Positions 28,839 to 64,000 of a stretch of DNA of 64,000 nucleotides are shown here, in pieces. The position numbers were made by a program, and so were the translations under genes. Source of the stretch: Patagioenas fasciata (lineage: Eukaryota). Location of the stretch: assembly GCF_037038585.1 (NCBI RefSeq), contig NC_092556.1, forward strand, positions 386,619 through 450,618. Direction: 5' to 3'. Below the pieces are notes generated by a model. It made no database searches. It was not told where the DNA came from and worked only from the letters and a program-made list of their open reading frames with translations. The stretch's first letter is position 1. Every line of letters begins with the position of its first letter.

Positions 28839-28969
28839 GGCTGCAAATGGAGGGTTAATTAGCTTAGAACTGCGTTAATTACAGAGAGAAACGGGCGGTT
28901 TCACTCAGGAATGGGTTAATTAATTCATACGTTCCGTTGTTTGCCGTGGAAATGGGGGTTTAGCTTCGG

Positions 28970-36000: not shown

Positions 36001-39000
36001 TGATCCTGCCCCACTCATCTCCATAATCTCTGCCCCACAGCTCTTTTGCTTCTTCTCTGCCCCACTGACCCCGCCCCACTGACCCCGCCCCACTGACCCC
36101 GCCCCACAGCTCCTGCCCCACTGACCCCGCCCCACTGACCCCGCCCCACTGACCCCGCCCCACGGCTGCTGCCCCACTGACCCCACCCCACAGCTCCCGC
36201 CCCACAGCTCCTGCCCCACTGACCCAGCCCCACTGACCCAGCCCCACAGCTCCCGCCCCACTGACCCCGCCCCACAGCTCCCGCCCCACAGCTCCCGCCC
36301 CACAGCTCCTGCCCCACTGACCCCGCCCCACTGACCCCGCCCCACTGACCCCGCCCCACTGACCCCGCCCCACGGCTGCTGCCCCCAGGGACGTGAAGGC
36401 CGGGAACATCCTGCTCAGCCCCACAGCCCAGGTCAAACTCGGCGACTTCGGCTCCGCCGCCACGGCCGCCCCGGCCGGGGCCTTCGTGGGGACCCCCTAC
36501 TGGTGAGAGACCCACACGTGTGGGGCTGGGACCCCCAAGTGTGGGGCTGGGACCCCCAAGTGTGGGGCTGGGACCATAGAGCGGCTGGGAGTGGGGGTTG
36601 CGACCCCCAAGTGTGGGGCTGGGACCCCCAAGTGTGGGGCTGGGACCATAGAGTGGCTGGGAGTGGGGGTTGTGACCCCCAAGTGTGGGGCTGGGACCCC
36701 CAAGTGTGGGGCTGGGACCATAGAGTGGCTGGGAGTGGGGGTTGTGACCCCCAAGTGTGGGGCTGGGACCCCCAAGTGTGGGGCTGGGACCATAGAGTGG
36801 CTGGGAGTGGGGGTTGTGACCCCCAAGTGTGGGGCTGGGACCCCCAAGCGTGGGGCTGGGACCATAGAGCGGCTGGGAGTGGGGGTTGTGACCCCCAAGT
36901 GTGGGGCTGGGACCCCCAAGTGTGGGGCTGGGACCATAGAGCGGCTGGGAGTGGGGGTTGTGACCCCCAAGTGTGGGGCTGGCCCCACACCCCAGCCCCG
37001 CTCCCTGCCCTGCCCCCGCCCCGCCCACAGTGCTGCCCCACACCCCTGCCCCACACCCCGCCCCCTGCCCCGCCCCCAGTGCTGCCCCGCCCCCCTGCCC
37101 CCCTGCCCCACCCCCAGTGCTGCCCCGCCCCCCTGCCCCCCTGCCCCGCCCCCAGTGCTGCCCCGCCCTCCCCACCCCGCCCCACACCCTCACCCCACAC
37201 CCCTCCTCACACCCCCACCCCACACCCCCGCCCCACAGCCCCCACCCCTGCCCCCCACCCTGCCCCACAACCCCACCCCACACCCCCCCCACCCTGCCCC
37301 GCCCCCCAGCCCCGCCCCACGTCCCTGCCCCACACCCCTGCCCCACATCCCCCCCCCACCCCTGCCCCACACCCCCCCCACCCCCGCCCCTGATCCCCGC
37401 CCCTGCCCCACACCCCCACCTCCCATCTTGCCCCACACCCCCGCCCCACACCCCTCCCCACACCCCCGCCCCATCACCGCTGCCCCACACCCCCGCCCCA
37501 CATCCCTCCCCACACCCCTGCCCCACACCCCTGCCCCACACCCCTGCCCCACACCCCGCCCCCAGTGCTGCCCCGCCCCCCCTGCCCCCGCCCCGCCCCC
37601 AGCGCTGCCCCGCCCCCTGCCCCACACCCCGCCCCATCACCGCTGCCCCACAGCCCCGTCCCACACCCCGCCCCCTGCCCCCCGCCCCGCCCCACGCGCG
37701 CTGTCCCCAGGATGGCCCCCGAGGCGATCGTGGCTCCGGACGGGCGGGCGAGCGACGGCAGAGCCGACGTCTGGGCCCTGGGCATCACCTGCATCGAGCT
37801 GGGTGAGACGTGACCCCTGACCCTGACCCTGACCTCTGACCCCTGACCCCTGACCCTGACCCCTGACCCTGACCCCTGACCCACGGCTGACCCGTGACCC
37901 TGACCCACGGCTGACCCATAGCTGACCCACGGCTGACCCACAGCTGACCCACGGCCCTGCCCCATGGTTGACCCATAACCTTGACCCATAGCTGACCCAT
38001 AGCCCTGACCCACAGCTGACCCATAGCCCTGACCCACAGCTGACCCACGGCTGACTCATAACCCTGACCCACAGCTGACCCACGGCTGACCCACAGCCTG
38101 ACCCATAGCCCTGACCCATAGCCTGACCCACATCCTGCCCCATGGCCTGACCCATAGCCTGACCCACAGCTAACCTATGGCTGACCCATAGCCCTGCCCC
38201 ATAGCTGACCCACGGCTGACCCATAGCCCTGACCCATAGCTGACCCACAGCCTGACCCACAGCCTGACCCACAGCCAGAGCCTGACTCACAGCCACCCCA
38301 TAGCTGATCCACATCCTGACCCACATCCTGACCCACATCCTGACCCACATCCTGACCCACAGCCCTGAGCCACAGCCCTGACCCACATCCTGCCCCATAG
38401 CCTGACCCACAACCTGACCCACAGCCAGAGCCTGACCCACATCCACCCCACATCCACCCACATCCCTGACCCACATTCAACCCACACCCACATCCACCCC
38501 ACAGCTGCCCCACATCTCCCCTCACACCCCACCCCCCACCCCACCCCACCCATTGTTGGGGTCTCGTTCCTGTTCCAATTGGGGGGCGGCGGGCGGGGGC
38601 GGTTCTGGGGCTGCTGTGGGGCTGCCCCCCCGCTCTGCCCCACACATCCCCCCCCGCTCTGCCCCACACATCCCCCCCGCTCTGCCCCACACATCCCCCC
38701 CCGCTCTGCCCCACACATCCCCCCCCGCTCTGCCCCACACATCCCCCCCGCTCTGCCCCACACATCCCCCCCCGCTCTGCCCCACACATCCCCCCCCGCT
38801 CTGCCCCACACATCCCCCCCCGCTCTGCCCCACACATCCCCCCCGCTCTGCCCCACATATCCCCCCCGCTCTGCCCCACACATCCCCCCCGCTCTGCCCC
38901 ACACATCCCCCCCGCTCTGCCCCACACATCCCCCCCGCTCTGCCCCACACATCCCCCCCGCTCTGCCCCACACATCCCCCCCGCTCTGCCCCACACATCC

Positions 39001-49450: not shown

Positions 49451-49799
49451 TGACCCCACATTGACCCCATTGCTGACCCCACATTGACCCCAGATGTGTG
49501 GGGCAGGGGGTCCCCAACCCCCCATATGCTCCCCCCACCACCCCCCCTCCCATTTTTATCCACTTTAATTAAAACCTCAATTAACCCCCGATCATTTGCG
49601 AGGCCACGCCCACTTCGCTCCCGAACGCCTGGGTCCACCCGGAAGGGGGGGGGGGGGGGGCGGTTAATTAAGGGTCTAATTAAGGGTCTGGGCGGGCGGG
49701 GAGGCCCGGGGGGGGGCGGGGAGGCCCGGGGGAGGGGGGTGGCCCGGGGGGGGGCGGGGAGGCCCGGGGGGGGCGGGGTTAATTAGCGGCTCGTTAATT

Positions 49800-50039
49800 A
49801 CTCACGTCAATCAGCGCCTCTTCCCGCGTCGCCATGGGAACGGCGGGCGGGGCGGGCGGGACCGCGGCGCCGCGCGCGGGGGATGCCGGGAAGGAGAAAT
49901 GGGGAGGGGGGGGAGGTGAGCGCGGCGCTGATTGGTGGCGGGGAGGGGGGAGCGCGGCGCTGGTTGGCTGGGAGGGGGGAGGGCGGGGCGCGGCGCGGTC
50001 ACGTGGGGGGCGGGGTTAAAGGCGGCGCGGAGCGGGGCC
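49800..50039 (+). promoter_or_regulatory. CDIPT: CDIPT TATA-less GC-rich promoter region (inverted CCAAT gctgATTGGtgg about 49926-49937, E-box CACGTG 50000-50005, multiple GC boxes)
   Basis: Unique GC-rich sequence immediately 5' of the CDIPT ATG at 50040, with housekeeping-type motifs. Confidence 0.45.
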
Positions 50040-50088
50040 ATGGGGGGGAAGGGGGAGAACGTCCTGCTGTTCGCGCCCAACGTCATCG
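50040..50088 (+). CDS. CDIPT: CDIPT exon 1 (MGGKGENVLLFAPNVIG)
   Basis: ggggccATGG start, then ATCG|gtaacg. A GC-box and E-box promoter lies upstream. Confidence 0.85.
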
Positions 50089-53000
50089 GTAACGGGGGGA
50101 CCGGGGGACTGGGGGGACTGGGGAGCGATTTGGGGTGACTGGGATGGACTGGGAGGGACTGGGGAGCGATTTGGGGTGACTGGGAGGGACTGGGGGGCGA
50201 TTTGGGGCGACTGGGATGGATGGGGAGGGACTGGGGGGCGACTGGGAGGGACTGGGAGGGATGCGGGGGGAACTGGGAGCGATTGGGAAGGACTGGGAGT
50301 GCTGGGATGGACTGGGGGGACTGGGAGCGACTGGGGGGCGATTTGGGGCGACTGGGATAAACTGGGAAGGGACTGGGGGGGACTGGGAGGGATGGGGGGG
50401 AACTGGGAGCGATTGGGAGGGACTGGGAGTGCTGGGATGGACTGGGGGGAACTGGGAGGGACTGGGAAGGGGTTGGGGGTGACTGGGATAAACTGGGGGG
50501 GCGCTGGGATGAACTGGGAGGGACTGGGGGGCACTGGGAAGGGATTGGGGGCACTGGGAGGGAACTGGGGAGGACTGGGATGTATTGGGAGGAACTGGGG
50601 GGACTGGGGGCACTGGGATGAACTGGGTGGACTGGGAAGCGATTTGGGGTGACTGGGAGGGCCTGAGAAGGGACTGGGAGGGATGGGGGGGGCACTGGGA
50701 GGGACTGGGAAAGGGTTGGGGGTGACTGGGGTAAACTGGGGGGGCACTGGGATGAACTGGGAGGGACTGGGGGGCACTGGGAAGCCTCTAAGAGTGGGTT
50801 TGGGGGTCTCTGTGCACAGGGGGTGCTCGGGGGGGGTTCTGGGTGACCCCCAGGGCCCTTGGGGAGCTGAAACGACCCATACTGGTCCATACTGGTTTAT
50901 ACTGGTTTATACTGGAAATGCCTCTAAGAGTGGATTTGGGGGTTCCTGTGCATAGGGGGTGCTTGGGGGGGGTTCTGGGTGACCCCCAGGGCCCTTGTGG
51001 AGCTGAAACGACCCATACTGGTCCATACTGGTCCATGCTGGTTTATACTGGAAACGCCTCTAAGAGCGGGTTTGGGGGTCTCTGTGCACAGGGGGTGCTC
51101 GGGGGGTCCCTGCTGACCCCCCCGCCCCTCCCCCCCCCCCAGGCTACGCCCGCGTGGCGCTGGCGGCCGCCTCGTTCTGGCTGATGCCGTCGCGCCCCGG
51201 CCCCGCGGCCGCGCTCTACGGGGCCAGCGCCGCTCTGGACGCCGTGGACGGCGCCGTGGCCCGCAGGCTCCACCAGGGTGGGCGGGGCTTGGGGGGGCGG
51301 GGCCTGGGGGCGGGGAGTTTGGGGGGCGGGGCTGATGGGGTGGGGGTGGGGTAGGTTGGGTGGATGGGGGGAGGATGGGGCATGGGGAGGTGGAGGGGGG
51401 GCGTGGTTTAGGAGGGAGGGGGGTGTGGTTTAGAGGGGGTGTGGTTTAGGTGGAGGGGGTGTGGATTAGAGGGGGTGTGGTTTAGGTGGGAGGGGGTGTG
51501 GTTTAGGAGGGAGGGGGGTGTGGTTTAGGTTGGAGGGGGGTGTGGTTTAGGTGGGGGGTGCGGTTTAGGTTGGAGGGGGTGTGGTTTAGGTGGGAGGGGG
51601 CGTGGTTTAGAGGGGGAGTGGTTTACAGGGGGTGTGGTTTAGGTGGGAGGGGGAGTGGCTTGGAGGGGGAGTGGCCTGAGGGGGTGGGGATGCAATGGGG
51701 CGGGGCCTCGGGGCTGGGGGAGGGGTAACGGGGGTGTATAGGGGTGGGGGGGGACATAGGGAGGTGGGAGGGGGCGTGGTTTAGGTGGGGAGGGGTGGGG
51801 CTTTTGGGGGTGGGGATTGGGGGGCGGGGTTTCCGGGGGGCGGGGCCTTGGGGGTGGGGGAGTGGTAACTGCGATGTATAGGGTGGGGAGGGGGCGTGGT
51901 TTAGAGGGGGTGTGGTTTAGGTGGAGGGGGTGTGGTTTAGAGGGGGTGTGGTTTAGGTGGGAGGGGGCGTGGTTTAGGTTGGAGGGGGTGTGGTTTAGGT
52001 GGGAGGGGGCGTGGTTTAGGTGGGAGGGGGCGTGGTTTAGAGGGGGAGTGGTTTATGTGTATTGGGTGTGGTTTAGAGGGGGTGTGGTTTAGAGGGGGTG
52101 TGGTTTAGAGGGGGTGTGGTTTAGAGGGGGCGTGGTTTAGAGGGGGTTGTGGTTTAGAGGGGGCGTGGTTTAGGTGGGAGGGGGCGTGGCTTGGAGGAGT
52201 CGAGGCCACGAGGGGGCAGGTGAAATGACCTATACTGGTTTATACTGGTCCATATTGGTTTATACTGGTCCATACTGGTTTATACTGGGAATGGCATTAT
52301 GGGGGTTTTCTTGGGCAAGGGGGAGCCAGGGGGTCACTGGGGGGTCCCCTAGGACCCTTGAGGAGGTGAAATGACCGATACTGGTTTATACTGGTCCATA
52401 CTGGTTTATACTGGTTTCTGCTGGTTTGAAGGCCCTTAGGGGGTGTCTATGGGGGGTTGGTTCCGGGGGTCACCCGGGGGCCCCCCCGCTGTCCCCGCCC
52501 CCCCAGGGACCCGTTTTGGCGCCATGCTGGACATGCTGACCGACCGGCTGAGCTCCATGTGCCTATTGGTCAACCTGGCGCTGCTCTACCCGGCAACCGC
52601 CGCCCTGTTCCAGCTCAGCATGGCGCTGGACATCGCCAGCCATTGGCTGCACCTGCACTGGTGGGCGGGGCCGGCGGGGGGCGGGGCCCGGCCAGAAGGG
52701 GCGGGGGCAGAGGGGGTGGGGATAAAGGGGGGGGCATAGAGGGGGCGGAGCTAAACGGGGTGGGGGTAAGAGGGTGGGGGTAAGGGGGCGGAGCTAAAGG
52801 GGTGGGGATAGAGGGGGCGGAGCTAAAGGGGTGGAGGTATGGGGGCGGAGCTAAAGGGGTGGGGATAGAGGGGGCGGAGCTAAAGGGCTGAGGGGTGGGG
52901 ACAAAGGGGGTGGGGATAAAGGAGGCGGAGCTTGCAAGAGGGGGTGGGGATAAAGGGGGTGGGGCTAAAGGAGAGAGGTGAAGGGGGCGGTGCTAAAGGG

Positions 53001-56000
53001 GGTGGGGATGAAGAGGGTGGGGCTAAAAGGGGGTGGGGCTAAAGGGGTGGAGCTAAAGGCAGTGGGAATAAAAGGGGTGGAGCTAAGGGGGGCGGGGATA
53101 AAGGGGGTGGGGTTAGAAGGGGCGGGGATAGAGGAGGTGGAGCTAAAAGGGGTTGGGAAGAAGGGGTGGAGCTAAAGGGGCGGAGCTTGGAGGGGATGGG
53201 CGGGGCTAAGGGGGTGTGGTCGGGGGGTGAACTGGGGGGTGCTGGGAAGGCCCAGCTGGGGTCTATGGGGGGGGGGGTGGGCGAAGGGGCGTGGCCGGTG
53301 GGCGTGTCCCCCGTGACCCCGCCCCCTTTCCCCTCCCCCAGCACCACCCTGGAGGGCGGAGCCTCCCACAAGAACGTGGGGGGGGAGGGGCACTGGCTGC
53401 TGCGCCTCTACTACACACACAAGGTGGGGGAGGGGCCAAGGGGGAGGGGCCAAGGGGTGGGGGAGGGGTCATGGGGTTGGGGGAGGGGCCAAGGGGGAGG
53501 GGTCATGTGGTAGGGGGAGGGGTCAGGGGTTTGGGGTGGGGTTGGGGGTGGAGTCATGGATTTGGGGGTGTGGTCAGGGGTTTGGGGGTGGGGTGATGGA
53601 TTTGGGGGTGGGGTCATGGATTTGGGGGTGTGGTCAGGGGTTTGGGGGCGGGGTGATGGATTTGGGGGTGGGGTCAGGGATTTGGGGGTGGGGTCAGAGG
53701 GGTGGGGTGGGGTCATGGGGCGTGGCCAATGTAGGAGGCGGGGTCATTATTTGGGGGCGGGGCCAGGGATTTGGGGGTGTGGTCAGTGTAGGGGTGGAGT
53801 CATTTGGGGGTGGGGGGGCGTGGTCAGTGTGGGGGTGGAGTCAGGGTGGGGTCAGTGTATGGGGACGGGGTCATTATTGGGGGCGGGGCCGTGGGGTTGT
53901 GGGCGGGGCCACGGGGTTGGGGTGGGGTCAGGCGGCTGTGGGCGGGGCCGGGGGCGTGTCCAGCTCAGGGGGCGTGTCGGCGCTGTCCCCGCCCCCAGCC
54001 GGTGCTGTTCGTGGTCTGTGCTGGGAACGAAGCGTTTTACTGCGCGCTCTACCTGCTCCGCTTCGGCGACGGGCCCCGCGGTGAGGCGCTGGGCACACGG
54101 GGCACAGACTGGGCACAGACTGGGTACACTGGGTACAGACTGGTTAGACTGGGTACAGACTGGTCAGACTGGGTACGGACTGGTCAGACTGGGTACAGAC
54201 TGGTTAGATTGGGTACAGACTGGTCAGACTGGGTACAGACTGGTCAGACTGGGTACGGACTGGTCAGACTGGGTACGGACTGGTTAGACTGGGTACAGAC
54301 TGGTTAGACTGGGTACGGACTGGTTAGACTGGGTACGGACTGGTCAGACTGGGTACGGACTGGTCAGACTGGGTACAGACTGGTCAGACTGGGTACGGAC
54401 TGGTCAGACTGGGTACGGACTGGTCAGACTGGGTACGGACTGGTCAGACTGGGTACGGACTGGTCAGACTGGTTACAGACTGGTCAGACTGGGTACAGAC
54501 TGGTCAGACTGGGTACAGACTGGTCAGACTGGGTACAGACTGGTCAGACTGGGTACGGACTGGTCAGACTGGGTACGGACTGGTCAGACTGGGTACAGAC
54601 TGGTTAGATTGGGTACAGACTGGTCAGACTGGGTACAGACTGGTTAGACTGGGTACGGACTGGTCAGACTGGGTACAGACTGGTCAGACTGGGTACGGAC
54701 TGGTCAGACTGGGTACAGACTGGTCAGACTGGGTACAGACTGGTCAGACTGGGCACAGACTGGTCAGACTGGGTACAGACTGGTCAGACTGGGTACGGAC
54801 TGGTCAGATTGGGTACGGACTGGTCAGACTGGGTACAGACTGGTCAGACTGGGTACAGACTGGTCAGACTGGGTACGGACTGGTCAGACTGGGTACGGAC
54901 TGGTCAGACTGGGTACGGACTGGTCAGACTGGGTACAGACTGGTCAGACTGGGTACAGACTGGTCAGACTGGGTACGGACTGGTCAGACTGGGTACGGAC
55001 TGGTCAGACTGGGTACAGACTGGTCAGACTGGGTACAGACTGGTCAGACTGGGCACAGACTGGTCAGACTGGGTACAGACTGGTTAGATTGGGTACAGAC
55101 TGGTCAGACTGGGTACGGACTGGTCAGACTGGGTACAGACTGGTTAGATTGGGTACAGACTGGTCAGACTGGGTACGGACTGGTCAGACTGGGTACAGAC
55201 TGGTCAGACTGGGTACAGACTGGTCAGACTGGGTACAGACTGGTCAGACTGGGTACAGACTGGTCAGACTGGGTACGGACTGGTCAGACTGGGTACAGAC
55301 TGGTCAGACTGGGTACAGACTGGTTAGACTGGGTACAGACTGGTCAGACTGGGTACGGACTGGTCAGACTGGGTACAGACTGGTCAGACTGGGCACAGAC
55401 TGGTTAGATTGGGTACAGACTGGTTAGATTGGGTACAGACTGGTCAGACTGGGTACAGACTGGTTACAGACTGGTTAGACTGGTTACAGACTGGTTACAG
55501 ACTGGTTACACTGGTTACAGACTGGTTACAGACTGGTTACAGACTGGTTAGACTGGTTACACTGGTTACAGACTGGTTACAGACTGGTTAGACTGGTTAC
55601 ACTGGTTACAGACTGGTTAGACTGGTTACAGACTGGTTAGACTGGTTACAGACTGGTTACAGACTGGTTACACTGGTTACAGACTGGTTACAGACTGGTT
55701 AGACTGGTTACACTGGGTACAGACTGGTTACAGACTGGTTACAGACTGATTACACTGGTTACACTGGTTACAGATTGGTCAGACTGGTTACACTGGTTAC
55801 ACTGGTTACACTGGTTACACACTGGTTACACTGGGGAGAGAGTGGTCAGACTGGTTACAGACTGGTCACAGACTGGTTACACTGGTCAGACTGGTCACAG
55901 ACTGGTTACACTGGTCAGACTGGTTACAGACTGGTTACACTGGTTACAGACTGGTTACACTGGTTACAGACTGGTTACAGACTGGTTACACTGGTTACAG

Positions 56001-57697
56001 GCTGGTTAAACTGGTTACAGACTGGTTACACTGGTTACAGGCTGGTTAAACTGGTTACAGACTGCTCAGACTGGTTACAGACCGGTTACACTGGTTACAG
56101 ACTGGTTACACTGGTTACACTGGTTACACTGGTTACACTGGTTACAGACTGGTCAGACTGGTTACAGACTGGTTAGACGACTGGTTACACTGGTTACAGA
56201 CTGGTTACAGACTGGTTACACTGGTTACAGACTGGTCAGACTGGTCAGACTGGTTACACTGGTTACAGACTGGTCAGACTGGTCAGACTGGTTACAGACT
56301 GGTTGCACTGGTTACACACTGGTTACACTGGTTACAGACTGGTTAGACTGGTCAGACTGGTCAGACTGGTTACACACTGGTTACACTGGTTACAGACTGG
56401 TCAGACTGGTTACACTGGTTACAGACTGGCTACACTGCGGAGAGACTGGTTATACTGGTTAGAGACTGGATATACCAGTTATGGACTGGTCAGACTGGTT
56501 ACAGACTGGTTAGACTGGAGAGAGACTGGTTAGAGACTGGGGAGAGACTGGTTAGACTGGTTAGAGACTGGGGAGAGACTGGTTAGACTGGTTAGAGACT
56601 GGATAGACCAGTTACAGACCGGTTAAACTGGTTACAGACTGGTTAGAGACTGGGGAGAGACTGGTTAGACTGGTTAGAGACTGGATATACCAGTTACGGA
56701 CTGGTTAGACTGGTTACAGACTGGTTAGACTGGAGAGAGACTGGTTAGAGACTGGATATACCAGTTACGGACTGGTTAGACTGGTTACAGACTGGTTAGA
56801 GACTGGATAGACCAGTTACAGACTGGTTAGACTGGTTAGAGAGACTGGTTATAGCCATTAGAGACTGGTTAGCCTGGTTATACCAGTTAGAGACCAGTTA
56901 GAGCCTCATTAGACTGGTTAGAGCCTCATTAGACTGGTTAGAGACTGGGGAAAGAGACCGGTTATGATACTGGTTATACTGGTTAGAGAGACTGGTTAGA
57001 CTGGTTAGCGAGATTGGTTAGACTGGGGAGACTGGTCAGACTGGGGAGTTACACTGGTTATACTGGGAACACTGGTTATACTGGGGGTCTGGTTATACTG
57101 GGGAGGTTGGTTATACTGGGAGACTGGGGGGAACTACGGGGAACTGGTTTATACTGGAGGGACTGGGAGGGATTGGGGAGCACTGGGATGAACTGGGAGG
57201 GGATTGGGAAGGACTGGGGGGGTCACTGGGATGAACTGGGGGTCACTGGTCGGTACTGGTCTGTACTGGTCCATACTGGTCTGGACTGGTCCGTACTGGT
57301 CCCAGGGGGCCCCGGGCTGTTCAGCCTCCTCCTCTGGGTCGGGACTGGGGGGCACTGGTCTGAACTGGTCCGTACTGGTCTGAACTGGTCCATACTGGTC
57401 CATACTGGTCTGAACTGGTCCGTACTGGTCTGAACTGGTCCGTACTGGTCTGAACTGGTCCGTACTGGTCCATACTGGTCTGAACTGGTCCATACTGGTC
57501 TGAACTGGTCCGTCCTGGTCCCAGTGCTCCCGGGGGGCCCCGGGCTGTTCCGCCTCCTCCTCTGGGTCGCGACCCCCATGGCCGCCCTCAAGTTCCTGCT
57601 GAACCTGCTGCAGCTGGGCGGAGCCGCCGCGCGATTGGCCGCCCTGGACGCCGCCGCCAGGCGATTGGACGGGGCGCCCCGCCCCAAAACCCAGTGA
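50040..57697 (+). CDS. CDIPT: CDP-diacylglycerol--inositol 3-phosphatidyltransferase (phosphatidylinositol synthase), complete CDS in 6 exons, 224 aa
   Basis: Plus-strand exons: 50040-50088, 51143-51277, 52507-52660, 53342-53423, 53999-54080, 57525-57697 (includes stop). Translation: MGGKGENVLLFAPNVIGYARVALAAASFWLMPSRPGPAAALYGASAALDAVDGAVARRLHQGTRFGAMLDMLTDRLSSMCLLVNLALLYPATAALFQLSMALDIASHWLHLHCTTLEGGASHKNVGGEGHWLLRLYYTHKPVLFVVCAGNEAFYCALYLLRFGDGPRGVLPGGPGLFRLLLWVATPMAALKFLLNLLQLGGAAARLAALDAAARRLDGAPRPKTQ*. It is collinear with my recall of human CDIPT (..FLFVPNLIGYARI...DAFDGHAARALNQGTRFGAMLDMLTDRCSTMCLLVNLALLYP...SHWLHLH...LRIYYTSRPALFTLCAGNELFYCLLYL..) and carries the CDP-alcohol phosphatidyltransferase D-G-x-x-A-R...G-x-x-x-D-x-x-x-D signature. 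All junctions are GT..AG. Confidence 0.9.
50090..50790 (+). repeat. 7-bp based satellite GACTGGGAGGGACTGGGGGGC (CDIPT intron 1)
   Basis: Direct reading. Confidence 0.85.
51143..51277 (+). CDS. CDIPT: CDIPT exon 2
   Basis: Acceptor cccccccccag|GCTACGCC and donor CACCAGG|gtgggcgg. Confidence 0.88.
51290..52170 (+). repeat. About 20 bp satellite GGTGTGGTTTAGGTGGGAGGG (CDIPT intron 2)
   Basis: Direct reading. Confidence 0.85.
52507..52660 (+). CDS. CDIPT: CDIPT exon 3
   Basis: Acceptor cgcccccccag|GGACCCG and donor GCACTG|gtgggcgg. Contains the GAMLDMLTDR active-site block. Confidence 0.9.
52690..53230 (+). repeat. About 30 bp satellite GGCGGAGCTAAAGGGGTGGGGATAAAGG (CDIPT intron 3)
   Basis: Direct reading. 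Confidence 0.85.
53342..53423 (+). CDS. CDIPT: CDIPT exon 4
   Basis: Acceptor cctcccccag|CACCACC and donor CACAAG|gtgggggag. Confidence 0.88.
53999..54080 (+). CDS. CDIPT: CDIPT exon 5
   Basis: Acceptor cgcccccag|CCGGTGCTG and donor CCCCGCG|gtgaggcg. Confidence 0.88.
54090..57060 (+). repeat. 3 kb satellite in CDIPT intron 5: 22-bp GACTGGTCAGACTGGGTACAGAC in about 60 copies (54090-55450), grading into ACTGGTTACAGACTGGTTAC variants (55450-57060)
   Basis: Direct reading. Confidence 0.9.
57525..57697 (+). CDS. CDIPT: CDIPT exon 6 (terminal; ..LWVATPMAALKFLLNLL.., stop TGA)
   Basis: Acceptor cgtcctggtcccag|TGCTCCC. Frame is continuous from exon 5. The stop is at 57695-57697. Confidence 0.82.
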
Positions 57698-57789
57698 CTC
57701 CGCCCCAGAACCCGCCCGGGACCCCCGCGAAATGTCCCCAAAACCGCCCCATAAACGGAGCAACCGCCCACCCCTGGAGGGGTTTCCTC

Positions 57790-59400
57790 ACCATTGACTC
57801 GTTAACGCCTTCGCCAATCAACGGGGGGTTAATTAGGGGCTAATTAAGAGTGGGGAGGGGTCTCCTGACCTTCTAGACCCCATAACTACCAACCCAACCC
57901 ATTGAGACCCAATGACCACCAACCCCATTGAGACCCAACCACCAACCCTATGTAGATGCAACTTCACCATTGACTCATTAAGCCTCTGGCCAATCAATGG
58001 GGGGTTAATTAGGGGCTAATTAAGAGTGGGGGAGGAGTCACCTGACCTTCTAGACCCCATAACTACCAACCCAACCCACTGAGACCCAATGACCACCAAC
58101 CCCATTGAGATGCAACCACCAACCCCTTGAGATGTTTCCTCACCATTGACTCATTAAGCCCTTGGCCAATCAACGGGGGGTTAATTAGGGGCTAATTAAG
58201 ACTGGGGGAGGAGTCACCTGACCTTCTAGACCCCATAACTACCAACCCCATAGAGACCCAATGACTACGAACCCATTGAGACTCAAGAACCATCAACCCC
58301 ATTGAGTTGTTTCTCCACCATTGACTCATTAAGCCCTTGGCCAATCAAAAGGTTAATTAATTATGGACTAATTAAGAGTGGGGAGGGGTCTCCTGACCTT
58401 CTAGACCCCGTAACTACCAACCCAACCCATTGAGACCCAATGACCACCAACCCCATTGAGATGCAACCACCAACCCCTTGAGATGTTTCCTCACCATTGA
58501 CTCATTAAGACCTTGGCCAATCAAAATGTTAATTAATAAGGGGTTAATTAAGAGTGGGGAGGGGCCTCCTGGCCTTCTAGACCCCATAACTACCAACCCC
58601 ATAGAGACCCAATGACCACCAACCCACTGAGACCCAATGACCGTGAACCCCATTGAGATGCAACCACCAACCCCTTGAGATGTTTCCTCACCATTGACTC
58701 ATTAAGCCCTTGGCCAATCAACGGGGGGTTAATTAGGGGCTAATTAAGACTGGGGGAGGAGTCATCTGACCTTCTAGACCCCATAACTACCAACCCCATA
58801 GAGACCCAATGACCATGAACCCATTGAGACCCAACGACCATCAACCCCATTGAGTTGTTTCTCCACCATTGACTCATTAAGCTCTTGGCCAATCAAAAGG
58901 TTAATTAATTATGGACTAATTAAGAGTGGGGAGGGGTCTCCTGACCTTCTAGACCCCATAACTACCAACCCAACCCACTGAGACCCAATGACCACCAACC
59001 CCATTGAGACCCAACCACCAACCCTATGTAGACGCAACTTCACCATTGACTCATTAAGCCTTTGCCAATGAATGGGGGGTTAATTAGGGGCTAATTAAGA
59101 GTGGGGAGGGGCCTCCTGGCCTTCTAGACCCCATAACTACCAACCCCATAGAGACCCAATGACCACCAACCCATTGAGACTCAAGAACCATCAACCCCAT
59201 TGAGATGTTTCCTCACCATTGACTCATTAAGCCCTTGGCCAATCAACGGGGGGTTAATTATGGACTAATTAAGAGTGGGGAGGGGTCTCCTGACCTTCTA
59301 GACCCCATAACTACCAACCCAACCCACTGAGACCCAATGACCGTGAACCCCATTGAGATGCAACCACCAACCCCTTGAGATGTTTCCTCACCATTGACTC
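57790..59400 (+). repeat. 177-bp (nucleosome-length) satellite in about 9 copies, containing GGCCAATCAA and GGGTTAATTAGGGGCTAATTAAG motifs, between the convergent 3' ends of CDIPT and MFAP4-like
   Basis: Monomer starts (CACCATTGACTCATTAAGCC) are near 57965, 58143, 58316, 58494, 58685, 58862, 59040, 59215 and 59390. Confidence 0.88.
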
Positions 59401-59472
59401 CTGAAGCCTGTGGCCAATTAACGAGCGGGTTTAATTGCACGCGCGGGGGCGGGGCGGGGCGGGGGCGGGGCC

Positions 59473-59720
59473 TCAGAGGCGCCGGATCTTCATCTCGCTC
59501 TTGCGCAGCGAGTAGTAGAAGCCCTTCCACTGGGCCCAGTTGATGCCGTTGGCGTAGGAGAGGTGGGCGCCCCCCAGGTAGAAGCCGTTGAGGTTGGAGA
59601 AGTGGCAGCTGCGGAACCACCAGGCGCCCGAGGAGAGGGCGGCGCAGTTCTGCACGTACAGGTCCTGGTCGCGGTCGAAGGTGGAGAACTTCTGCCCGTT
59701 GTGGTAGCTCAGGGAGTCCC
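59473..59720 (-). CDS. MFAP4: MFAP4-like last exon ([39 protein letters not shown]...EMKIRRL*)
   Basis: Acceptor caccccccag|GGGACTCC on the minus strand. The stop codon TGA is at 59473-59475. Confidence 0.88.
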
Positions 59721-62510
59721 CTGGGGGTGGGGGGGGTCGTTGGGGTGGGGTCCCCGTCCCCATGGTTGACATTGACCTGGGGTCCCCTCCATTGACCTGG
59801 GGTCCCCTCCATTGACCTGGGGTCCCCTCCATTGACCTGGGGTCCCATTCCCATGGTTGACGTTGACTTGATCTCCCTCCCATTGACCCCCATTGACCAC
59901 ATTGAACCCCATTGACCCCCATTGACCCCCATTGACTCCCATTGATCCCCATTGACTGCCATTGAACCCCATTGACCCCCATTGACCCCCATTGACGCCC
60001 ATTGACTCCCATTGACCGCCATTGACTCCCATTGACCCCCACTGATCCCCATTGACCCCCATTAACTCCCATTGACGCCCATTGATTCCCATTGATCCCC
60101 ATTGACCCCCATTGACTTCCATTGATTCCCATTGACCCCCATTGACCTCCATTGACTCCCATTGACCCCCATTGACCCCATTGATCCCCATTGACCCCCA
60201 TTGACTCCTGGTCGCGGTCGAAGGTGGAGAACTTCTGCCCGTTGTGGTAGCTCAGGGAGTCCCCTGGGGGTGGGGGGGTCGTTGGGGTGGGGTCCCCGTC
60301 CCCGTGATTGACGTTGACCTGGGGTCCCCTCCCCATGGTTGACATTGACCTGGGGTCCCCTCCATTGACCTGGGGTCCCCTCCCCATGGTTGACATTGAC
60401 CCAATGGCCCTCATGGTGGACGTTGACCTGGGGTCCCCTCCATTGACCTGGGGTCCCCTCCATTGACCTGGGGTCCCATTCCCATGGTTGACGTTGACTT
60501 GATCTCCCTCCCATTGACCACATTGAACCCCATTGACCCCCATTGATCCCCATTGACTCCCATTGATCCCCATTGACTGCCATTGAACCCCATTGACCCC
60601 CATTGACCCCTGTTGATCCCCATTGACTCCCATTGACTTCCATTGATTCTCATTGACTCCCATTGACCCCATTGACGCCCATTGACTCCCATTGACCGCC
60701 ATTGACCCCCATTGACTCCCATTGACCCCCATTGACTCCCATTGACCACCATTGACCCCCACTGACCCCCATTGACCCCCATTGACCCCCATTGACCCCC
60801 ATTGATCCCCATTGATCCCCATTGACCCCCATTGACTCCTGGTCGCGGTCGAAGGTGGAGAACTTCTGCCCGTTGTGGTAGCTCAGGGAGTCCCCTGGGG
60901 GTGGGGGGGTCGTTGGGGTGGGGTCCCCGTCCCCATGGTTGACATTGACCTGGGGTCCCCTCCATTGACCTGGGGTCCCCTCCATTGACCTGGGGTCCCC
61001 TCCATTGACTTCTTGTCCCCTCCCCATGGTTGACATTGACCTGGGGTCCCCTCCATTGACCTGGGGTCCCATTCCCATGGTTGACGTTGACTTGATCTCC
61101 CTCCCATTGACCACATTGAACCCCATTGACCCCCATTGACCACATTGAACCCCATTGACCCCCATTGACTCCCATTGACCCCCACTGACCCCCACTGACC
61201 CCCATTGATTCCTATTGACCCCCATTGACTCCCATTGACTTTCATTGATTCCCATTGACCCCCATTGACTCCCAGTGACCCCCAGTGACCCCCACTGACC
61301 CCCATTGACCCCCATTGACTCCCATTGACCCCCATTGACTCCCAGTGACCCCCAGTGACCCCCACTGACCCCCATTGACCCCCATTGACCCCCATTGACT
61401 CCCATTGACCCCCACTGACCCGCATTGACTCCCATTGACCCCCATTGACTCCCATTGACCCCCACTGACCCCCATTGACTCCCATTGACCCCCATTGACC
61501 CCATTGACCCCCACTGACCCCCACTGACCCCCATTGAACCCCATTGACTCCCATTGACCCCCATTGACCCCATTGACCCCCATTGACCCCCATTGATCCC
61601 CATTGACTCCCATTGACTCCCATTGACCCCCATTGACCCCGTTGACCCCCATTGACCCCATTGACCCCCATTGACTCCTGGTCGCGGTCGAAGGTGGAGA
61701 ACTTCTGCCCGTTGTGGTAGCTCAGGGAGTCCCCTGGGGGTGGGGGGGTCGTTGGGGTGGGGTCCCCGTCCCCGTGATTGACGTTGACCTGGGGTCCCCT
61801 CCATAGACCTGGGGTCCCCTCCATGGACCTGGGGTCCCATTCCCATGGTTGACGTTGACTTGATCTCCCTCCCATTGACCACATTGAACCCCATTGACCC
61901 CCATTGACCACATTGACTCCCATTGACCCCCATTGACTCCCATTGATCCCCATTGACTGCCATTGAACCCCATTGACCCCCATTGACCCCTGTTGATCCC
62001 CATTGACCCCCATTGACTTCCATTGATTCTCATTGACTCCCATTGACCCCCACTGACGCCCATTGACCCCCATTGACCCCAATTGACTCCCACTGACCCC
62101 CATTGACCCCCACTGACCCCCACTGATCCCCACTGACCCCCATTGACTCCCATTGACCCCCATTGACTCCGTTGACCCCCATTGACCCCCACTGATCCCC
62201 ATTGACCCCATTGACCCCCATTGACCCCCATTGATCCCCATTGACTCCCATTGACTCCGTTGCCCCCCACTGACCCCCACTGACCCCCATTGCCCCCCGT
62301 CGCCCCCCGTCGCCCCCCGCCCCTCACCGGCGCCGCCGTCCACGAAGCCGCCCACGTGCAGGGTGTACCCGTCCTCCTCGGCGCTCACGGCGTGGGGCGA
62401 CAGCGCGAAGCGGCCGTAGGTGGCGGCCGCCGAGTTGTTCTCGAAGTCCTCGAGCTCCACGCGCAGCTCGTAGCGGCCCTGCAGCGTCAGCAGGTGCAGC
62501 GCCTGCAGCC
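59473..62510 (-). CDS. MFAP4: MFAP4-like fibrinogen C-terminal domain protein, 3' terminal two coding exons only (partial at window end)
   Basis: Minus-strand exons 62328-62510 and 59473-59720. Translation: (G)[142 protein letters not shown]. It is nearly collinear with my recall of the human MFAP4 C-terminus (..[142 protein letters not shown]). Upstream exons must lie beyond 64000. Confidence 0.82.
59730..62310 (+). repeat. 12-bp satellite CCATTGACCCCC with a 550-840 bp higher-order structure carrying copies of the MFAP4-like last-exon 5' fragment (MFAP4-like intron)
   Basis: Direct reading. Confidence 0.9.
62328..62510 (-). CDS. MFAP4: MFAP4-like penultimate exon ([25 protein letters not shown]...[10 protein letters not shown])
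   Basis: Acceptor ccccacctgcag|GGCTGCAG and donor GGCGCCG|gtgaggggcg on the minus strand. 183 bp. Phase is consistent with the last exon. Confidence 0.82.
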
Positions 62511-62519
62511 CTGCAGGTG

Positions 62520-64000
62520 GGGTGATGTGGGGTGATGTGGGGTGATGTGGGGCAGATGTGGGGCGGGATGTGGGGTGATGTGGGGCAGATGTGGGGCGGG
62601 ATGTGGGGTGATGTGGGGCGGGATGTGGGGTGATGTGGGGCGGGATGTGGGGCAGCTCGTAGCGGCCCTGCAGCGTCAGCAGGTGCAGCGCCTGCAGCCC
62701 TGCAGGTGGGGCGATGTGGGGTGATGTGGGGTGATGTGGGGCAGGATGTGGGGCGGGATGTGGGGCAGATGTGGGGCGGGATGTGGGGCAGCTCGTAGCG
62801 GCCCTGCAGCGTCAGCAGGTGCAGCGCCTGCAGCCCTGCAGGTGGGGCGATGTGGGGTGATGTGGGGTGATGTGGGGTGATGTGGGGAGGGATGTGGGGC
62901 AGATGTGGGGCGGGATGTGGGGCAGCTCGTAGCGGCCCTGCAGCGTCAGCAGGTGCAGCGCCTGCAGCCCTGCGTGTGGGGTGATGTGGGGTGATGTGGG
63001 GTGATGTGGGGCAGATGTGGGGCAGATGTGGGGCGGGATGTGGGGCAGCTCGTAGCGGCCCTGCAGCGTCAGCAGGTGCAGCGCCTGCAGCCCTGCAGGT
63101 GGGGTGATGTGGGGTGATGTGGGGCAGATGTGGGGCGGGATGTGGGGCAGATGTGGGGTGATGTGGGGCAGATGTGGGGCAGGATGTGGGGCAGCTCGTA
63201 GCGGCCCTGCAGCGTCAGCAGGTGCAGCGCCTGTAGCCCTGGATGTGGGGTGATGTGGGGTGATGTGGGGCGGGATGTGGGGCAGCTCGTAGCGGCCCTG
63301 CAGCGTCAGCAGGTGCAGCACCTGCAGCCCTGCATGTGGGGTGATGTGGGGTGATGTGGGGTGATGTGGGGTGATGTGGGGCAGGATGTGGGGCGGGATG
63401 TGGGGCAGCTCGTAGCGGCCCTGCAGCGTCAGCAGGTGCAGCGCCTGCAGCCCTGCAGGTGGGGCGATGTGGGGTGATGTGGGGTGATGTGGGGCAGGAT
63501 GTGGGGCGGGATGTGGGGCAGATGTGGGGCGGGATGTGGGGCAGCTCGTAGCGGCCCTGCAGCGTCAGCAGGTGCAGCGCCTGCAGCCCTGCAGGTGGGG
63601 CGATGTGGGGTGATGTGGGGTGATGTGGGGTGATGTGGGGAGGGATGTGGGGCAGATGTGGGGCGGGATGTGGGGCAGCTCGTAGCGGCCCTGCAGCGTC
63701 AGCAGGTGCAGCGCCTGCAGCCCTGCGTGTGGGGTGATGTGGGGTGATGTGGGGTGATGTGGGGCAGATGTGGGGCAGATGTGGGGCGGGATGTGGGGCA
63801 GCTCGTAGCGGCCCTGCAGCGTCAGCAGGTGCAGCGCCTGCAGCCCTGCAGGTGGGGTGATGTGGGGTGATGTGGGGCAGATGTGGGGCGGGATGTGGGG
63901 CAGATGTGGGGTGATGTGGGGCAGATGTGGGGCAGGATGTGGGGCAGCTCGTAGCGGCCCTGCAGCGTCAGCAGGTGCAGCGCCTGTAGCCCTGGATGTG
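62520..64000 (+). repeat. About 120-150 bp tandem units in about 11 copies. Each is a copy of the MFAP4-like penultimate-exon acceptor plus the first about 50 nt of that exon, followed by GATGTGGGG satellite
   Basis: The unit GGGCAGCTCGTAGCGGCCCTGCAGCGTCAGCAGGTGCAGCGCCTGCAGCCCTGCAGGTGGGGTGATGTGGGG.. is repeated. The minus-strand ORF 62812-63321 reads [17 protein letters not shown] three times. Confidence 0.9.

What the first reader, a model, noticed from the sequence alone, without database searches (positions are those of the whole stretch)
57790..59400. Nucleosome-length (177 bp) satellite in 9 copies between convergent CDIPT and MFAP4-like 3' ends
Most other arrays in the window have 9-60 bp units. 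This one has a 177-bp monomer with about 90% identity between copies, which is typical of higher-eukaryote positioning or centromere-type satellites. It lies exactly where two convergent transcription units terminate. It contains CCAATCA boxes and paired TTAATTAG motifs. It could act as a terminator/insulator or a phased-nucleosome element.
Basis: seen in the sequence. Interest (0 to 1): 0.5.

Follow-up and report, generated by a model that had tools for sequence, protein, structure and literature searches.

The report
Pigeon MFAP4–CDIPT intergenic 176-bp tandem array
The 176-bp repeat is real, but it is a local tandem amplification of the DNA just after the MFAP4 gene's poly(A) signal, of the kind already described as 'sequence stuttering' on repeat-saturated bird microchromosomes, and not a centromere-type satellite.

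Summary
The array is confirmed. It spans window 57760-59436, with 9 full monomers (173-197 bp, mostly 175-176) and one 77-bp partial copy, about 89% mutually identical. It fills 94% of the 1775 bp between the stop codons of convergent CDIPT (+) and MFAP4 (-).

It is not special for its length. TRF places 84% of the window in tandem arrays, and 21 arrays have periods of 100 bp or more.

The MFAP4-side end of the array overlaps that gene's only poly(A) signal, ATTAAA. The monomer core (TAATTAA, GTTGATTGGCC, TGAGTCAATGGTGGAG.AACATCTC) matches a module found just after the MFAP4 stop codon in most of the other bird loci fetched.

Columba guinea has an orthologous array of about 9 units. Its units cluster mostly by species, and it contains a fresh copy of the MFAP4 exon end, 3'UTR and ATTAAA. 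Other birds carry different arrays at this spot, with units from about 10 to 155 bp.

The array is CpG-depleted (o/e 0.16), has no 10-bp WW periodicity, and occurs nowhere else in the window.

Best reading: local repeat amplification that keeps turning over by unequal exchange. A terminator or buffer role is possible but untested. Interest is low to moderate.

The parts
57760..59436 (.). Tandem array of 9 full monomers plus one partial: m1 57760-57935, m2 57936-58111, m3 58112-58286, m4 58287-58462, m5 58463-58659, m6 58660-58834, m7 58835-59011, m8 59012-59184, m9 59185-59359, m10 (partial) 59360-59436. Each monomer is a conserved core followed by 2-4 copies of a 23-26-bp sub-repeat (CCAACCCCATTGAGACCCAATGACCA).
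58112..59011 (.). Higher-order duplication. m3 matches m6 at 98% and m4 matches m7 at 96%, offset by 548 bp (three monomers). TRF also scores period 351 higher than period 176.
57527..57697 (+). CDIPT last coding exon. The stop codon TGA is at 57695-57697.
   Evidence: 96% amino-acid identity to the Columba guinea CDIPT last exon
57750..57755 (+). CATAAA, the only poly(A)-signal-like hexamer on the + strand between the CDIPT stop codon and the bulk of the array. It is the candidate CDIPT poly(A) signal (inferred). C. guinea has CATAAAT at the matching position.
59473..59721 (-). MFAP4 last coding exon. The stop codon is at 59475-59473.
   Evidence: 100% amino-acid and 98.4% nucleotide identity to C. 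guinea
59430..59435 (-). ATTAAA, the MFAP4 poly(A) signal, starting 37 nt after the stop codon. It lies inside the partial monomer m10, at the position where internal monomers read TAATTAAC. An A[AT]TAAA hexamer follows the MFAP4 stop codon in all 8 other bird loci examined.
59412..59422 (-). GTTAATTGGCC (GGCCAATTAAC on the + strand). This is the seed copy of the GTTGATTGGCC / CCAAT motif that every monomer carries. It lies 7 nt after the poly(A) hexamer here and in the loci that share the block. The block is kept, with one or two base changes, in 7 of the 8 other bird loci.
57829..57847 (.). First copy of the palindrome TTAATTAG-GGG-CTAATTAA (8-bp arms). It recurs once per monomer, perfect in m1, m2, m3, m6 and m8.

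Best explanation
The array is a locus-specific tandem amplification of the DNA that starts at the MFAP4 poly(A) signal and runs downstream of it. It lies in the very short spacer between convergent MFAP4 and CDIPT, on a GC-rich, repeat-saturated microchromosome region of a pigeon or dove.

Origin (inferred). A unit of about 176 bp was duplicated head to tail by replication slippage or unequal exchange at short homologies. The unit holds an AATTAA element, GTTGATTGGCC, TGAGTCAATGGTGGAG.AACATCTC, a short G/T-rich 23-26-bp sub-repeat, and GGGGTCTAGAAGGTCAGG..CCTCCCCAC.CTTAATTAG.

Turnover (shown). The array keeps turning over by the same processes. Central copies are homogenised, a three-monomer block was re-duplicated, and the edge copies are the most diverged. 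The unit carries its own small minisatellite, where most length and sequence variation sits.

Recurrence. This is the 'sequence stuttering' behaviour described for genes on avian dot chromosomes, acting here on a 3' flank rather than an intron. Arrays recur at this site across birds.

Function (inferred). I think the array most likely has no sequence-specific function of its own. Its practical effect is to lengthen the spacer between two converging poly(A) sites from a few hundred bp to 1.7 kb.
For: 1. Local origin. The partial copy m10 (59361-59436) matches consensus positions 1-75 at 87% and runs into the unique ATTAAA of MFAP4. The full monomer is found nowhere else in the 64 kb.

2. Conserved seed. 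In 7 of the 8 other bird loci, A[AT]TAAA after the MFAP4 stop codon is followed by GTTGATTGGCC or a one- or two-base variant. In most of them a GGTGGAG.ACATCTC block follows as well. This is the same order as in the monomer.

3. Orthologous array in Columba guinea. L008 8620-10207 holds about 9 units that are 83-93% identical to the window consensus. One unit (L008 9204-9303) is a fresh copy of the MFAP4 exon end, 3'UTR and ATTAAA, joined at an AAGGG microhomology. This shows that duplication from the gene end into the array is ongoing.

4. Concerted evolution. Nearest neighbours of 14 of 17 monomers are in the same species, counting ties. Mean identity is 89% within the window array, 82% within C. 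guinea and 82% between them. There is no position-by-position orthology.

5. The site is a hotspot. Arrays after the MFAP4 stop codon have units of 155 bp (Pseudopodoces), about 126-140 bp in about 3 copies (Cuculus), 25/51 bp over 4.3 kb (Numenius), 29/58 bp (two parrots) and about 10 bp over more than 1 kb (Sturnus).

6. Context. TRF places 83.7% of the window in tandem arrays. MFAP4 exon pieces are themselves tandemly copied at 60205-61728 and 62653-63992.

7. Literature. PMC12954441 describes local expansions of originally unique sequence in blocks of tens to hundreds of bases on chicken dot chromosomes. It lists MFAP4 (chr38) among its exon-stuttering genes and notes that intergenic sequence is also affected.

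8. Variation pattern. Variation concentrates in the sub-repeat part of the monomer (column identity 0.69-0.85) against 0.92-0.99 in the core blocks.
Against: The core blocks are very well kept among 17 monomers of two species. Parts of the unit that are not in the seed next to the stop codon match cuckoo at 89.7% over 39 nt, and Pseudopodoces at 77% over 53 nt. That block is AGGTCAGG.GAC.CCTCCCCAC.CT.TAATTAACCCC. A repeated unit with the same motif order may therefore have persisted since early Neoaves. This could mean selective constraint rather than neutral turnover.

I could not search a whole pigeon genome, Dfam or Repbase. 'Single locus' is shown only for this window and the loci of 23 kb or less that I fetched.

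An attempt to show that the tail of the monomer derives from the MFAP4 exon end and 3'UTR gave no significant alignment (z about 1).
Confidence: 0.72

Rival explanations
1. The array is a functional termination buffer between two converging genes. Each monomer would re-present elements from just downstream of the poly(A) site: a G/U-rich stretch on the MFAP4 sense strand, and GGGGAGGGG (similar to a MAZ-type pause site) on the CDIPT sense strand. Polymerases that read past either poly(A) site would then pause and terminate before colliding or making antisense RNA.
For: The array lies exactly between the two candidate poly(A) signals, CATAAA at 57750 and ATTAAA at 59435-59430. The monomer is homologous to the segment conserved just downstream of the MFAP4 poly(A) signal. 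Repeat arrays at this spot recur in pigeon, passerine and cuckoo with shared motifs. GGGGAGGGG occurs in 6 of 9 full monomers on the + strand. From general knowledge, G-rich MAZ sites act as pause/termination elements between closely spaced human genes, and mouse rDNA carries ten repeated terminators.
Against: There are no transcript, Pol II or read-through data. Internal monomers carry no canonical poly(A) hexamer. GGGGAGGGG occurs 35 times in the window, so it is not specific to the array. There are no G-quadruplex motifs on either strand. Parrots and starling have unrelated short-unit arrays here, and in parrots no array follows the poly(A) signal. So no particular sequence is required at this site.
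Confidence: 0.15
2. The array is a cis-regulatory array (enhancer or spacer promoter). Each monomer offers a strong NF-Y type CCAAT box (TTGGCCAATCA), an AP-1-like TGACTCA, and a pair of TAATTA homeodomain-type sites.
For: These motifs sit in the best conserved parts of the monomer. The CCAAT block is conserved after the MFAP4 poly(A) signal in 7 of the 8 other bird loci. Similar TTAATTA pairs with CAATCA occur just upstream of CDIPT exon 1, at 49658-49815.
Against: The array is strongly CpG-depleted: o/e is 0.16 overall and 0.11 for internal copies, against 0.80-0.85 in the flanks. That fits long-term germline methylation rather than an active, unmethylated promoter or enhancer island. The motif matches were made by eye against consensus sequences recalled from memory. 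No transcription start evidence exists. Any 176-bp sequence contains several such short matches.
Confidence: 0.06
3. The array is a centromere-type or nucleosome-phasing satellite whose 176-bp unit is selected to match the nucleosome repeat length.
For: The unit length is close to a nucleosome repeat. A three-monomer higher-order duplication exists.
Against: The array has only 9.4 copies in 1.7 kb, inside a gene-dense stretch between two coding exons. Unit length at the orthologous site ranges from about 10 to 176 bp among birds, and C. guinea mixes 154-155 and 175-bp units. The window has 21 arrays with periods of 100-430 bp. There is no WW periodicity at 10.35 bp. Published chicken centromeric repeats are the 41-bp CNM repeat and telomere-like repeats (PMC9974502).
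Confidence: 0.02
4. The monomer is a fragment of a transposable element or a dispersed repeat family, or the array is an assembly artefact.
For: AT-rich palindromes with TTAA resemble some transposon ends.
Against: There is no second copy in the window. A six-frame translation of the monomer found nothing among 5.8 billion protein clusters. A 29-base core pattern found nothing in metagenome contigs. There is no Rfam hit. An independent assembly of another species, Columba guinea GCA_032206185.1, carries the same array at the same place.
Confidence: 0.03

Closest known systems
'Sequence stuttering': local repeat expansion in genes of avian dot chromosomes (PMC12954441, Genome Biol Evol 2026)
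   Same: Originally unique local sequence is copied in imperfect tandem blocks of tens to hundreds of bases. The region is GC-rich and almost entirely tandem-repetitive. Exon pieces of the same gene (MFAP4) are copied into its introns. Chicken MFAP4 is on that paper's list of exon-stuttering genes. Array structure differs between related species.
   Different: That paper describes introns and exon-intron borders. This array is intergenic and starts at a poly(A) signal. The unit, or at least its motif order, is shared between pigeon, cuckoo and a passerine. The paper instead reports mostly independent, species-specific expansions.
Classical minisatellites, VNTRs and macrosatellites evolving by unequal exchange
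   Same: A single-locus array with diverged edge copies, homogenised interior copies, higher-order duplications and monomers that mostly cluster by species (concerted evolution).
   Different: The unit is longer than typical minisatellites and is itself composite: a unique core plus an internal 23-26-bp minisatellite. Copy-number polymorphism within a population was not tested.
Alpha-satellite-like centromeric satellites (about 171 bp)
   Same: Unit length near 170-180 bp and a hint of higher-order structure.
   Different: The array is 1.7 kb rather than hundreds of kb. It lies in a euchromatic gene spacer, is single-site, and has a lineage-variable unit length. No kinetochore evidence exists.
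Repeated terminators or pause sites downstream of genes (mouse rDNA Sal-box T1-T10; MAZ G-rich pause sites between closely spaced Pol II genes), from general knowledge
   Same: Reiterated elements lie immediately downstream of a 3' end in a short spacer before the next transcription unit.
   Different: No binding factor or termination activity is known or tested here. The resemblance is positional only.

Membership tests
Avian dot-chromosome 'sequence stuttering' (PMC12954441) | The repeat cluster originates from adjacent unique sequence | tested here: met
   The partial monomer m10 is continuous with the unique MFAP4 ATTAAA region. A C. guinea unit contains the MFAP4 exon end and 3'UTR. The monomer is absent elsewhere in the window.
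Avian dot-chromosome 'sequence stuttering' (PMC12954441) | Blocks of tens to hundreds of bases in imperfect tandem (the paper's worked example uses <20% edit distance from consensus) | tested here: met
   Units are 173-197 bp and 88.6-96% identical to the consensus.
Avian dot-chromosome 'sequence stuttering' (PMC12954441) | Located in a GC-rich, repeat-saturated gene region of a dot chromosome | tested here: inconclusive
   The window is 62% GC with 83.7% in TRF arrays. Chicken MFAP4 is on dot chromosome 38. The chromosome of this window itself is unknown.
Avian dot-chromosome 'sequence stuttering' (PMC12954441) | Lies within introns or at exon-intron borders | tested here: not met
   The array is intergenic, between two stop codons. 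The paper notes in one sentence that intergenic sequence is also affected.
Avian dot-chromosome 'sequence stuttering' (PMC12954441) | Length variation between individuals and species | tested here: inconclusive
   Between species, array organisation differs: window spacings are 174-197 bp and C. guinea spacings are 154-176 bp plus an exon-containing unit. Variation within a species is not testable here.
Centromeric (alpha-like) satellite | Very long homogeneous arrays at or near a centromere, present in many copies | tested here: not met
   The array is 1677 bp with 9.4 copies, flanked within 62 and 36 nt by coding exons.
Centromeric (alpha-like) satellite | CENP-A or kinetochore association | not testable with these tools
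   This needs ChIP or CUT&Tag data.
Nucleosome-positioning repeat | A 10-10.5-bp periodicity of AA/TT/TA dinucleotides, or a unit length conserved at the nucleosome repeat length | tested here: not met
   The harmonic at 10.35 bp is not enriched (p 0.29). The one at 9.78 bp is nominal only (p 0.0145 among 7 tests). Orthologous-site unit lengths range from about 10 to 176 bp.
Pol II termination / pause element | Located directly downstream of a functional poly(A) signal | tested here: met
   ATTAAA (- strand, 59435-59430) and CATAAA (+ strand, 57750) bracket the array. Actual use of these signals is inferred, not shown.
Pol II termination / pause element | Demonstrated pausing or termination activity, or a specific pause motif | tested here: inconclusive
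   GGGGAGGGG is in 6 of 9 full monomers but occurs 35 times in the window. No G-quadruplex motifs are present. Activity is not testable here.

The most novel reading that the evidence does not exclude
A reiterated module that starts at the MFAP4 poly(A) signal has been kept between convergent MFAP4 and CDIPT since early Neoaves. Its parts are an AATTAA palindrome, a CCAAT/GU-rich block, GGTGGAG.ACATCTC and AGGTCAGG..CCTCCCCAC. Under this reading it is kept because it works as a multi-copy fail-safe terminator or collision buffer for two genes whose 3' ends are otherwise only a few hundred bp apart. This would be a Pol II analogue of the repeated terminators of rDNA. Copy number would be tuned by the same slippage that creates the array.
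Probability: 0.1. Interest if true: 0.55.

Novelty: new member of a known kind. Interest (0 to 1): 0.25.

Why it matters
The finding is mainly a clean worked example. In a bird microchromosome region that is 84% tandem repeat, a 'satellite-looking' 176-bp array can be traced to its source, the MFAP4 poly(A) site. It can also be followed in a sister species, where a new copy of the exon end has just been pulled into the array.

That extends the recently described 'sequence stuttering' from introns to a gene's 3' flank. It also warns against reading nucleosome-length units as centromeric or positioning satellites.

If the conserved core turned out to be constrained, the locus would be a tractable natural system for asking how closely spaced convergent genes terminate transcription.

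Tried and rejected
- Rfam scan of the whole window at gathering thresholds: no hit.
- Exact-pattern scan of metagenome contigs with a 29-base core of the monomer: 0 hits.
- Six-frame pseudo-protein of the monomer against 5.8 billion protein clusters: 674 word candidates, none at E <= 0.001.
- Exact look-up of a 449-aa window ORF to identify the source record: not on record. The alligator MFAP4 look-up also failed, so no non-avian outgroup was obtained.
- Idea that the monomer tail (GGGGTCTAGAAGGTCAGG...CTTAATTAG) is a decayed copy of the MFAP4 exon end and 3'UTR: local alignment scores are no better than shuffles (z 0.8-1.6). Rejected.
- Overall single-strand folding of the monomer on either strand: z -0.4 and -0.7, not unusual. 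Only the small palindromes fold.
- First WW-periodicity test used non-harmonic periods and was uninformative. It was redone on harmonics of the circular consensus.
- Literature search for a known pigeon satellite of this kind found nothing relevant.
- No tool here gives access to a full eukaryotic genome, Dfam or Repbase. Genome-wide copy number remains unknown.

Full report

Yes. TRF finds an array at 57761-59436 with period 176, 9.4 copies and score 1424. The same stretch scores higher at period 351, with 82% matches and score 2034.

I segmented the array on the invariant anchor CACCATTGACTC. This gives nine full monomers of 173-197 bp, seven of them 175-177 bp, and a 77-bp partial copy at the MFAP4 end. 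Each full monomer is 88.6-96% identical to the consensus. Mean pairwise identity over aligned columns is 89%.

Monomers m3 and m6 are 98% identical, and m4 and m7 are 96% identical, both offset by 548 bp. So a three-monomer block was re-duplicated.

CCAATCA occurs in 8 of 10 copies. The perfect palindrome TTAATTAG-GGG-CTAATTAA occurs in 5 of 9 full monomers.

The unit is composite. A conserved core is followed by 2-4 copies of a 23-26-bp sub-repeat, CCAACCCCATTGAGACCCAATGACCA. That sub-repeat resembles the (CCCATTGACC)n arrays in the adjacent MFAP4 introns.

**2. Flanking genes**

tblastn with human CDIPT and MFAP4 sequences, recalled from memory, located the exons.
- CDIPT exons lie on the + strand from 50055 to 57697, with the stop codon at 57695-57697.
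- The last two MFAP4 exons lie on the - strand at 62511-62323 and 59721-59473, with the stop codon at 59475-59473.

Window-derived peptides confirm both identifications. The CDIPT peptide hits PF01066 at E 4e-13 and the MFAP4 peptide hits PF00147 at E 1e-40. The best solved-structure match of the latter is MFAP4 itself, 7zmk at E 8e-78, against 1.8e-46 for FIBCD1.

The stop-to-stop spacer is 1775 bp, and the array covers 1677 bp of it. In this spacer the only poly(A)-signal-like hexamers in the sense direction are CATAAA at 57750 (+ strand) and ATTAAA at 59435-59430 (- strand). An AATGAA at 59067 on the + strand lies deep inside the array.

**3. Context**

The window is 62% GC. TRF places 83.7% of it in tandem arrays, giving 137 non-redundant arrays. 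Twenty-one have a best period of 100 bp or more, and eight of these fall between 164 and 201 bp. There is also a 208/427-bp array at 5902-7670 with 90-93% matches. A unit of about 176 bp is therefore not exceptional here.

MFAP4 exon fragments are themselves tandemly copied.
- The 5' part of the last exon recurs at about 60205-60258, 60836-60889 and 61675-61728.
- The 5' 48 nt of the preceding exon recurs 11 times between 62653 and 63992.

**4. Where the window comes from, and the published phenomenon**

MFAP4 homologues led to genomic loci from other birds.

The Columba guinea locus (L008, GCA_032206185.1) is the closest. Its MFAP4 last exon is 100% identical in amino acids and 98.4% in nucleotides. 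Its CDIPT last exon is 96.4% and 96.5% identical. The window is therefore from a pigeon or dove.

The convergent order MFAP4 then CDIPT is also present in cuckoo and two parrots.

PMC12954441 describes 'sequence stuttering' on chicken dot chromosomes. Originally unique sequence, including exon pieces, is locally expanded in imperfect tandem blocks of tens to hundreds of bases. The paper lists MFAP4 (chr38:1462727-1477796) among its 115 exon-stuttering genes and remarks that intergenic sequence is also affected. PMC9974502 gives the general picture of GC-rich, repeat-rich dot chromosomes. It reports that chicken centromeres use the 41-bp CNM repeat and telomere-like repeats.

**5. What the monomer is**

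The partial copy m10 matches consensus positions 1-75 at 87% and ends inside the MFAP4 ATTAAA. Internal monomers read TAATTAAC at the corresponding position.

I aligned the sequence after the MFAP4 stop codon from nine sources: the window and eight other bird loci. An A[AT]TAAA hexamer follows the stop codon in every one.
- It starts 37-90 nt after the stop codon in most. In parrots it is about 600 nt away, because a 29-bp array fills the 3'UTR.
- In 7 of the 8 other loci the hexamer is followed, usually after about 7 nt, by GTTGATTGGCC or a one- or two-base variant. The window itself has GTTAATTGGCC.
- In most of these a GGTGGAG.ACATCTC..GGGGTTGGTGG block follows.

The exception is L003, a Logan contig from run ERR15285262. 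This motif order is the front part of the pigeon monomer. The array is thus built from the conserved segment at and just downstream of the MFAP4 poly(A) site.

**6. Comparative behaviour of the site**

C. guinea has an orthologous array at L008 8620-10207 with ten CCAAT phase points, spaced 154-176 bp. One unit (L008 9204-9303) is a copy of the last 60 nt or so of the MFAP4 coding sequence, with the stop codon, 3'UTR and ATTAAA. It is joined to a monomer at an AAGGG microhomology. This is a direct snapshot of duplication from the gene end into the array.

Monomers of the two species mostly cluster by species. One variant type is shared: W2, W4 and W7 are about 94% identical to G3, G7 and G9. 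There is no positional orthology. That is the signature of concerted evolution by unequal exchange or conversion.

Other birds carry other arrays at this spot.
- Pseudopodoces has a 155-bp unit in at least 4.2 copies, cut by an assembly gap. It has the same motif order: TTAATTAG..TTAATTAA..TTGATTGG..GGTGGAAA.ATCTC..GGGGTCTGGGAGGTC..CCTCCCCCAC.
- Cuculus has about three copies of about 126-140 bp.
- Numenius has 4.3 kb of a 25/51-bp unit derived from the GGTGGAGCCACATCTCC part.
- The two parrots have a 29/58-bp array in the 3'UTR.
- Sturnus has more than 1 kb of a unit of about 10 bp.

The spot just after the MFAP4 stop codon is therefore a recurrent hotspot for tandem expansion, with lineage-specific unit lengths.

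**7.

- *Nucleosome positioning.* The circular consensus shows no WW-dinucleotide enrichment at the 10.35-bp harmonic (p 0.29). There is only a nominal peak at 9.78 bp, p 0.0145 among seven harmonics. Unit length is not conserved among lineages.
- *Centromere type.* The array is 1.7 kb and lies between two exons.
- *Promoter or enhancer.* CpG o/e is 0.16, and 0.11 for internal copies, against 0.80-0.85 in the flanks. This points to long-term methylation rather than an active CpG-island-like element.
- *Structure.* Single-strand folding of the monomer is unremarkable, z -0.4 and -0.7. There are no G-quadruplex motifs and no Rfam family.
- *Terminator or buffer.* The position fits perfectly, and the monomer derives from the segment next to the poly(A) site. 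But internal copies lack a canonical poly(A) hexamer. The MAZ-like GGGGAGGGG is common throughout the window, with 35 copies. Nothing available here measures transcription.

**8. Points that keep a functional reading alive**

Across 17 monomers of two species, the core blocks are 92-99% conserved per column. The sub-repeat region is 69-85% conserved and rich in indels.

A block that is not part of the seed next to the stop codon matches cuckoo at 89.7% over 39 nt. That block is AGGTCAGG.GAC.CCTCCCCAC.CT.TAATTAACCCC.

A small palindrome in the monomer varies in a compensated way. GGTC-TCCT-GACC becomes GGCC-TCCT-GGCC in m5 and m8 (read from the sequence).

These features could reflect constraint. 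They could equally reflect homogenisation plus mutation concentrated in the slippage-prone sub-repeat.

**9. Verdict**

The positional link to gene ends is real and conserved. The satellite, centromere and nucleosome reading is not supported.

The array is best filed as a new example of local tandem expansion ('stuttering') on an avian GC-rich microchromosome, located at a 3' flank. A terminator or buffer role remains an untested possibility, which I put at 0.10-0.15.

The main limitation is that no whole bird genome or repeat library could be searched. Uniqueness of the monomer is shown only for this window and the fetched loci.

Noticed in passing
window 62323-63994 (- strand): The MFAP4 exon at 62511-62323 is followed by 11 tandem copies of its first 48 nt ([16 protein letters not shown]). 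The copies are embedded in a 123-136-bp unit together with (GATGTGGGGC)n. This is textbook 'exon stuttering'. Each copy keeps the exon's 5' edge, so cryptic splice acceptors are possible.
   Followed up: partly
window 59770-62298 (- strand): The 5' part of the last MFAP4 exon ([17 protein letters not shown]) recurs three more times, at about 60205-60258, 60836-60889 and 61675-61728. The first two lie in a repeat of about 631 bp, interleaved with (CCCATTGACC)n arrays.
   Followed up: partly
L008 9204-9303 (Columba guinea): Inside the orthologous array lies a second copy of the MFAP4 coding end ([17 protein letters not shown], then the stop codon), the 3'UTR and ATTAAA. It is joined to a monomer at an AAGGG microhomology. 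The window's array has no such insert.
   Followed up: yes
window 49658-49815; also 28846-28930, 18111-18146, 23574-23660, 350-375: Pairs of TTAATTA motifs recur at several other places. At 49775-49815 they occur with CAATCA, about 240 bp upstream of CDIPT exon 1. They look like gene boundaries in otherwise GC-rich sequence and resemble the monomer's TAATTA/CCAAT core. It was not determined whether they mark poly(A) sites or promoters.
   Followed up: no
window 5902-7670: A 208-bp unit in 8.3 copies (427-bp higher-order period, 90-93% matches) is at least as 'satellite-like' as the flagged array. It was not part of the finding.
   Followed up: no
window 58563-58574 and 59110-59121: In m5 and m8 the small palindrome GGTC-TCCT-GACC reads GGCC-TCCT-GGCC. 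Both arms changed, which keeps the dyad. This could be a shared variant spread by conversion, or a hint that the palindrome matters.
   Followed up: no
window 33092-36503 (+) and about 11713-12225 (-): Exons of a TAOK2-like protein kinase are present on the + strand (PF00069, E 8e-32). An exon resembling a myosin regulatory light chain (…[21 protein letters not shown]) lies on the - strand, but it had no Pfam hit at 38 aa. Together with CDIPT this suggests synteny with human 16p11.2. In cuckoo a protein-kinase gene also follows CDIPT.
   Followed up: partly
window 54105-57521: The last CDIPT intron, between the exons at 53996-54076 and 57527-57697, is almost entirely 20-bp and 10-bp arrays (CAGACTGGGTACAGACTGGT and ACTGGTCCGT). 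The C. guinea intron carries related arrays at about 74-76% identity.
   Followed up: no
L002 (JGI metagenome 3300005287, contig Ga0065711_1022539): A 1.8-kb contig filed under a metagenome carries a bird MFAP4 last exon and its poly(A)-site module. This is host or environmental bird DNA in a metagenome collection.
   Followed up: no
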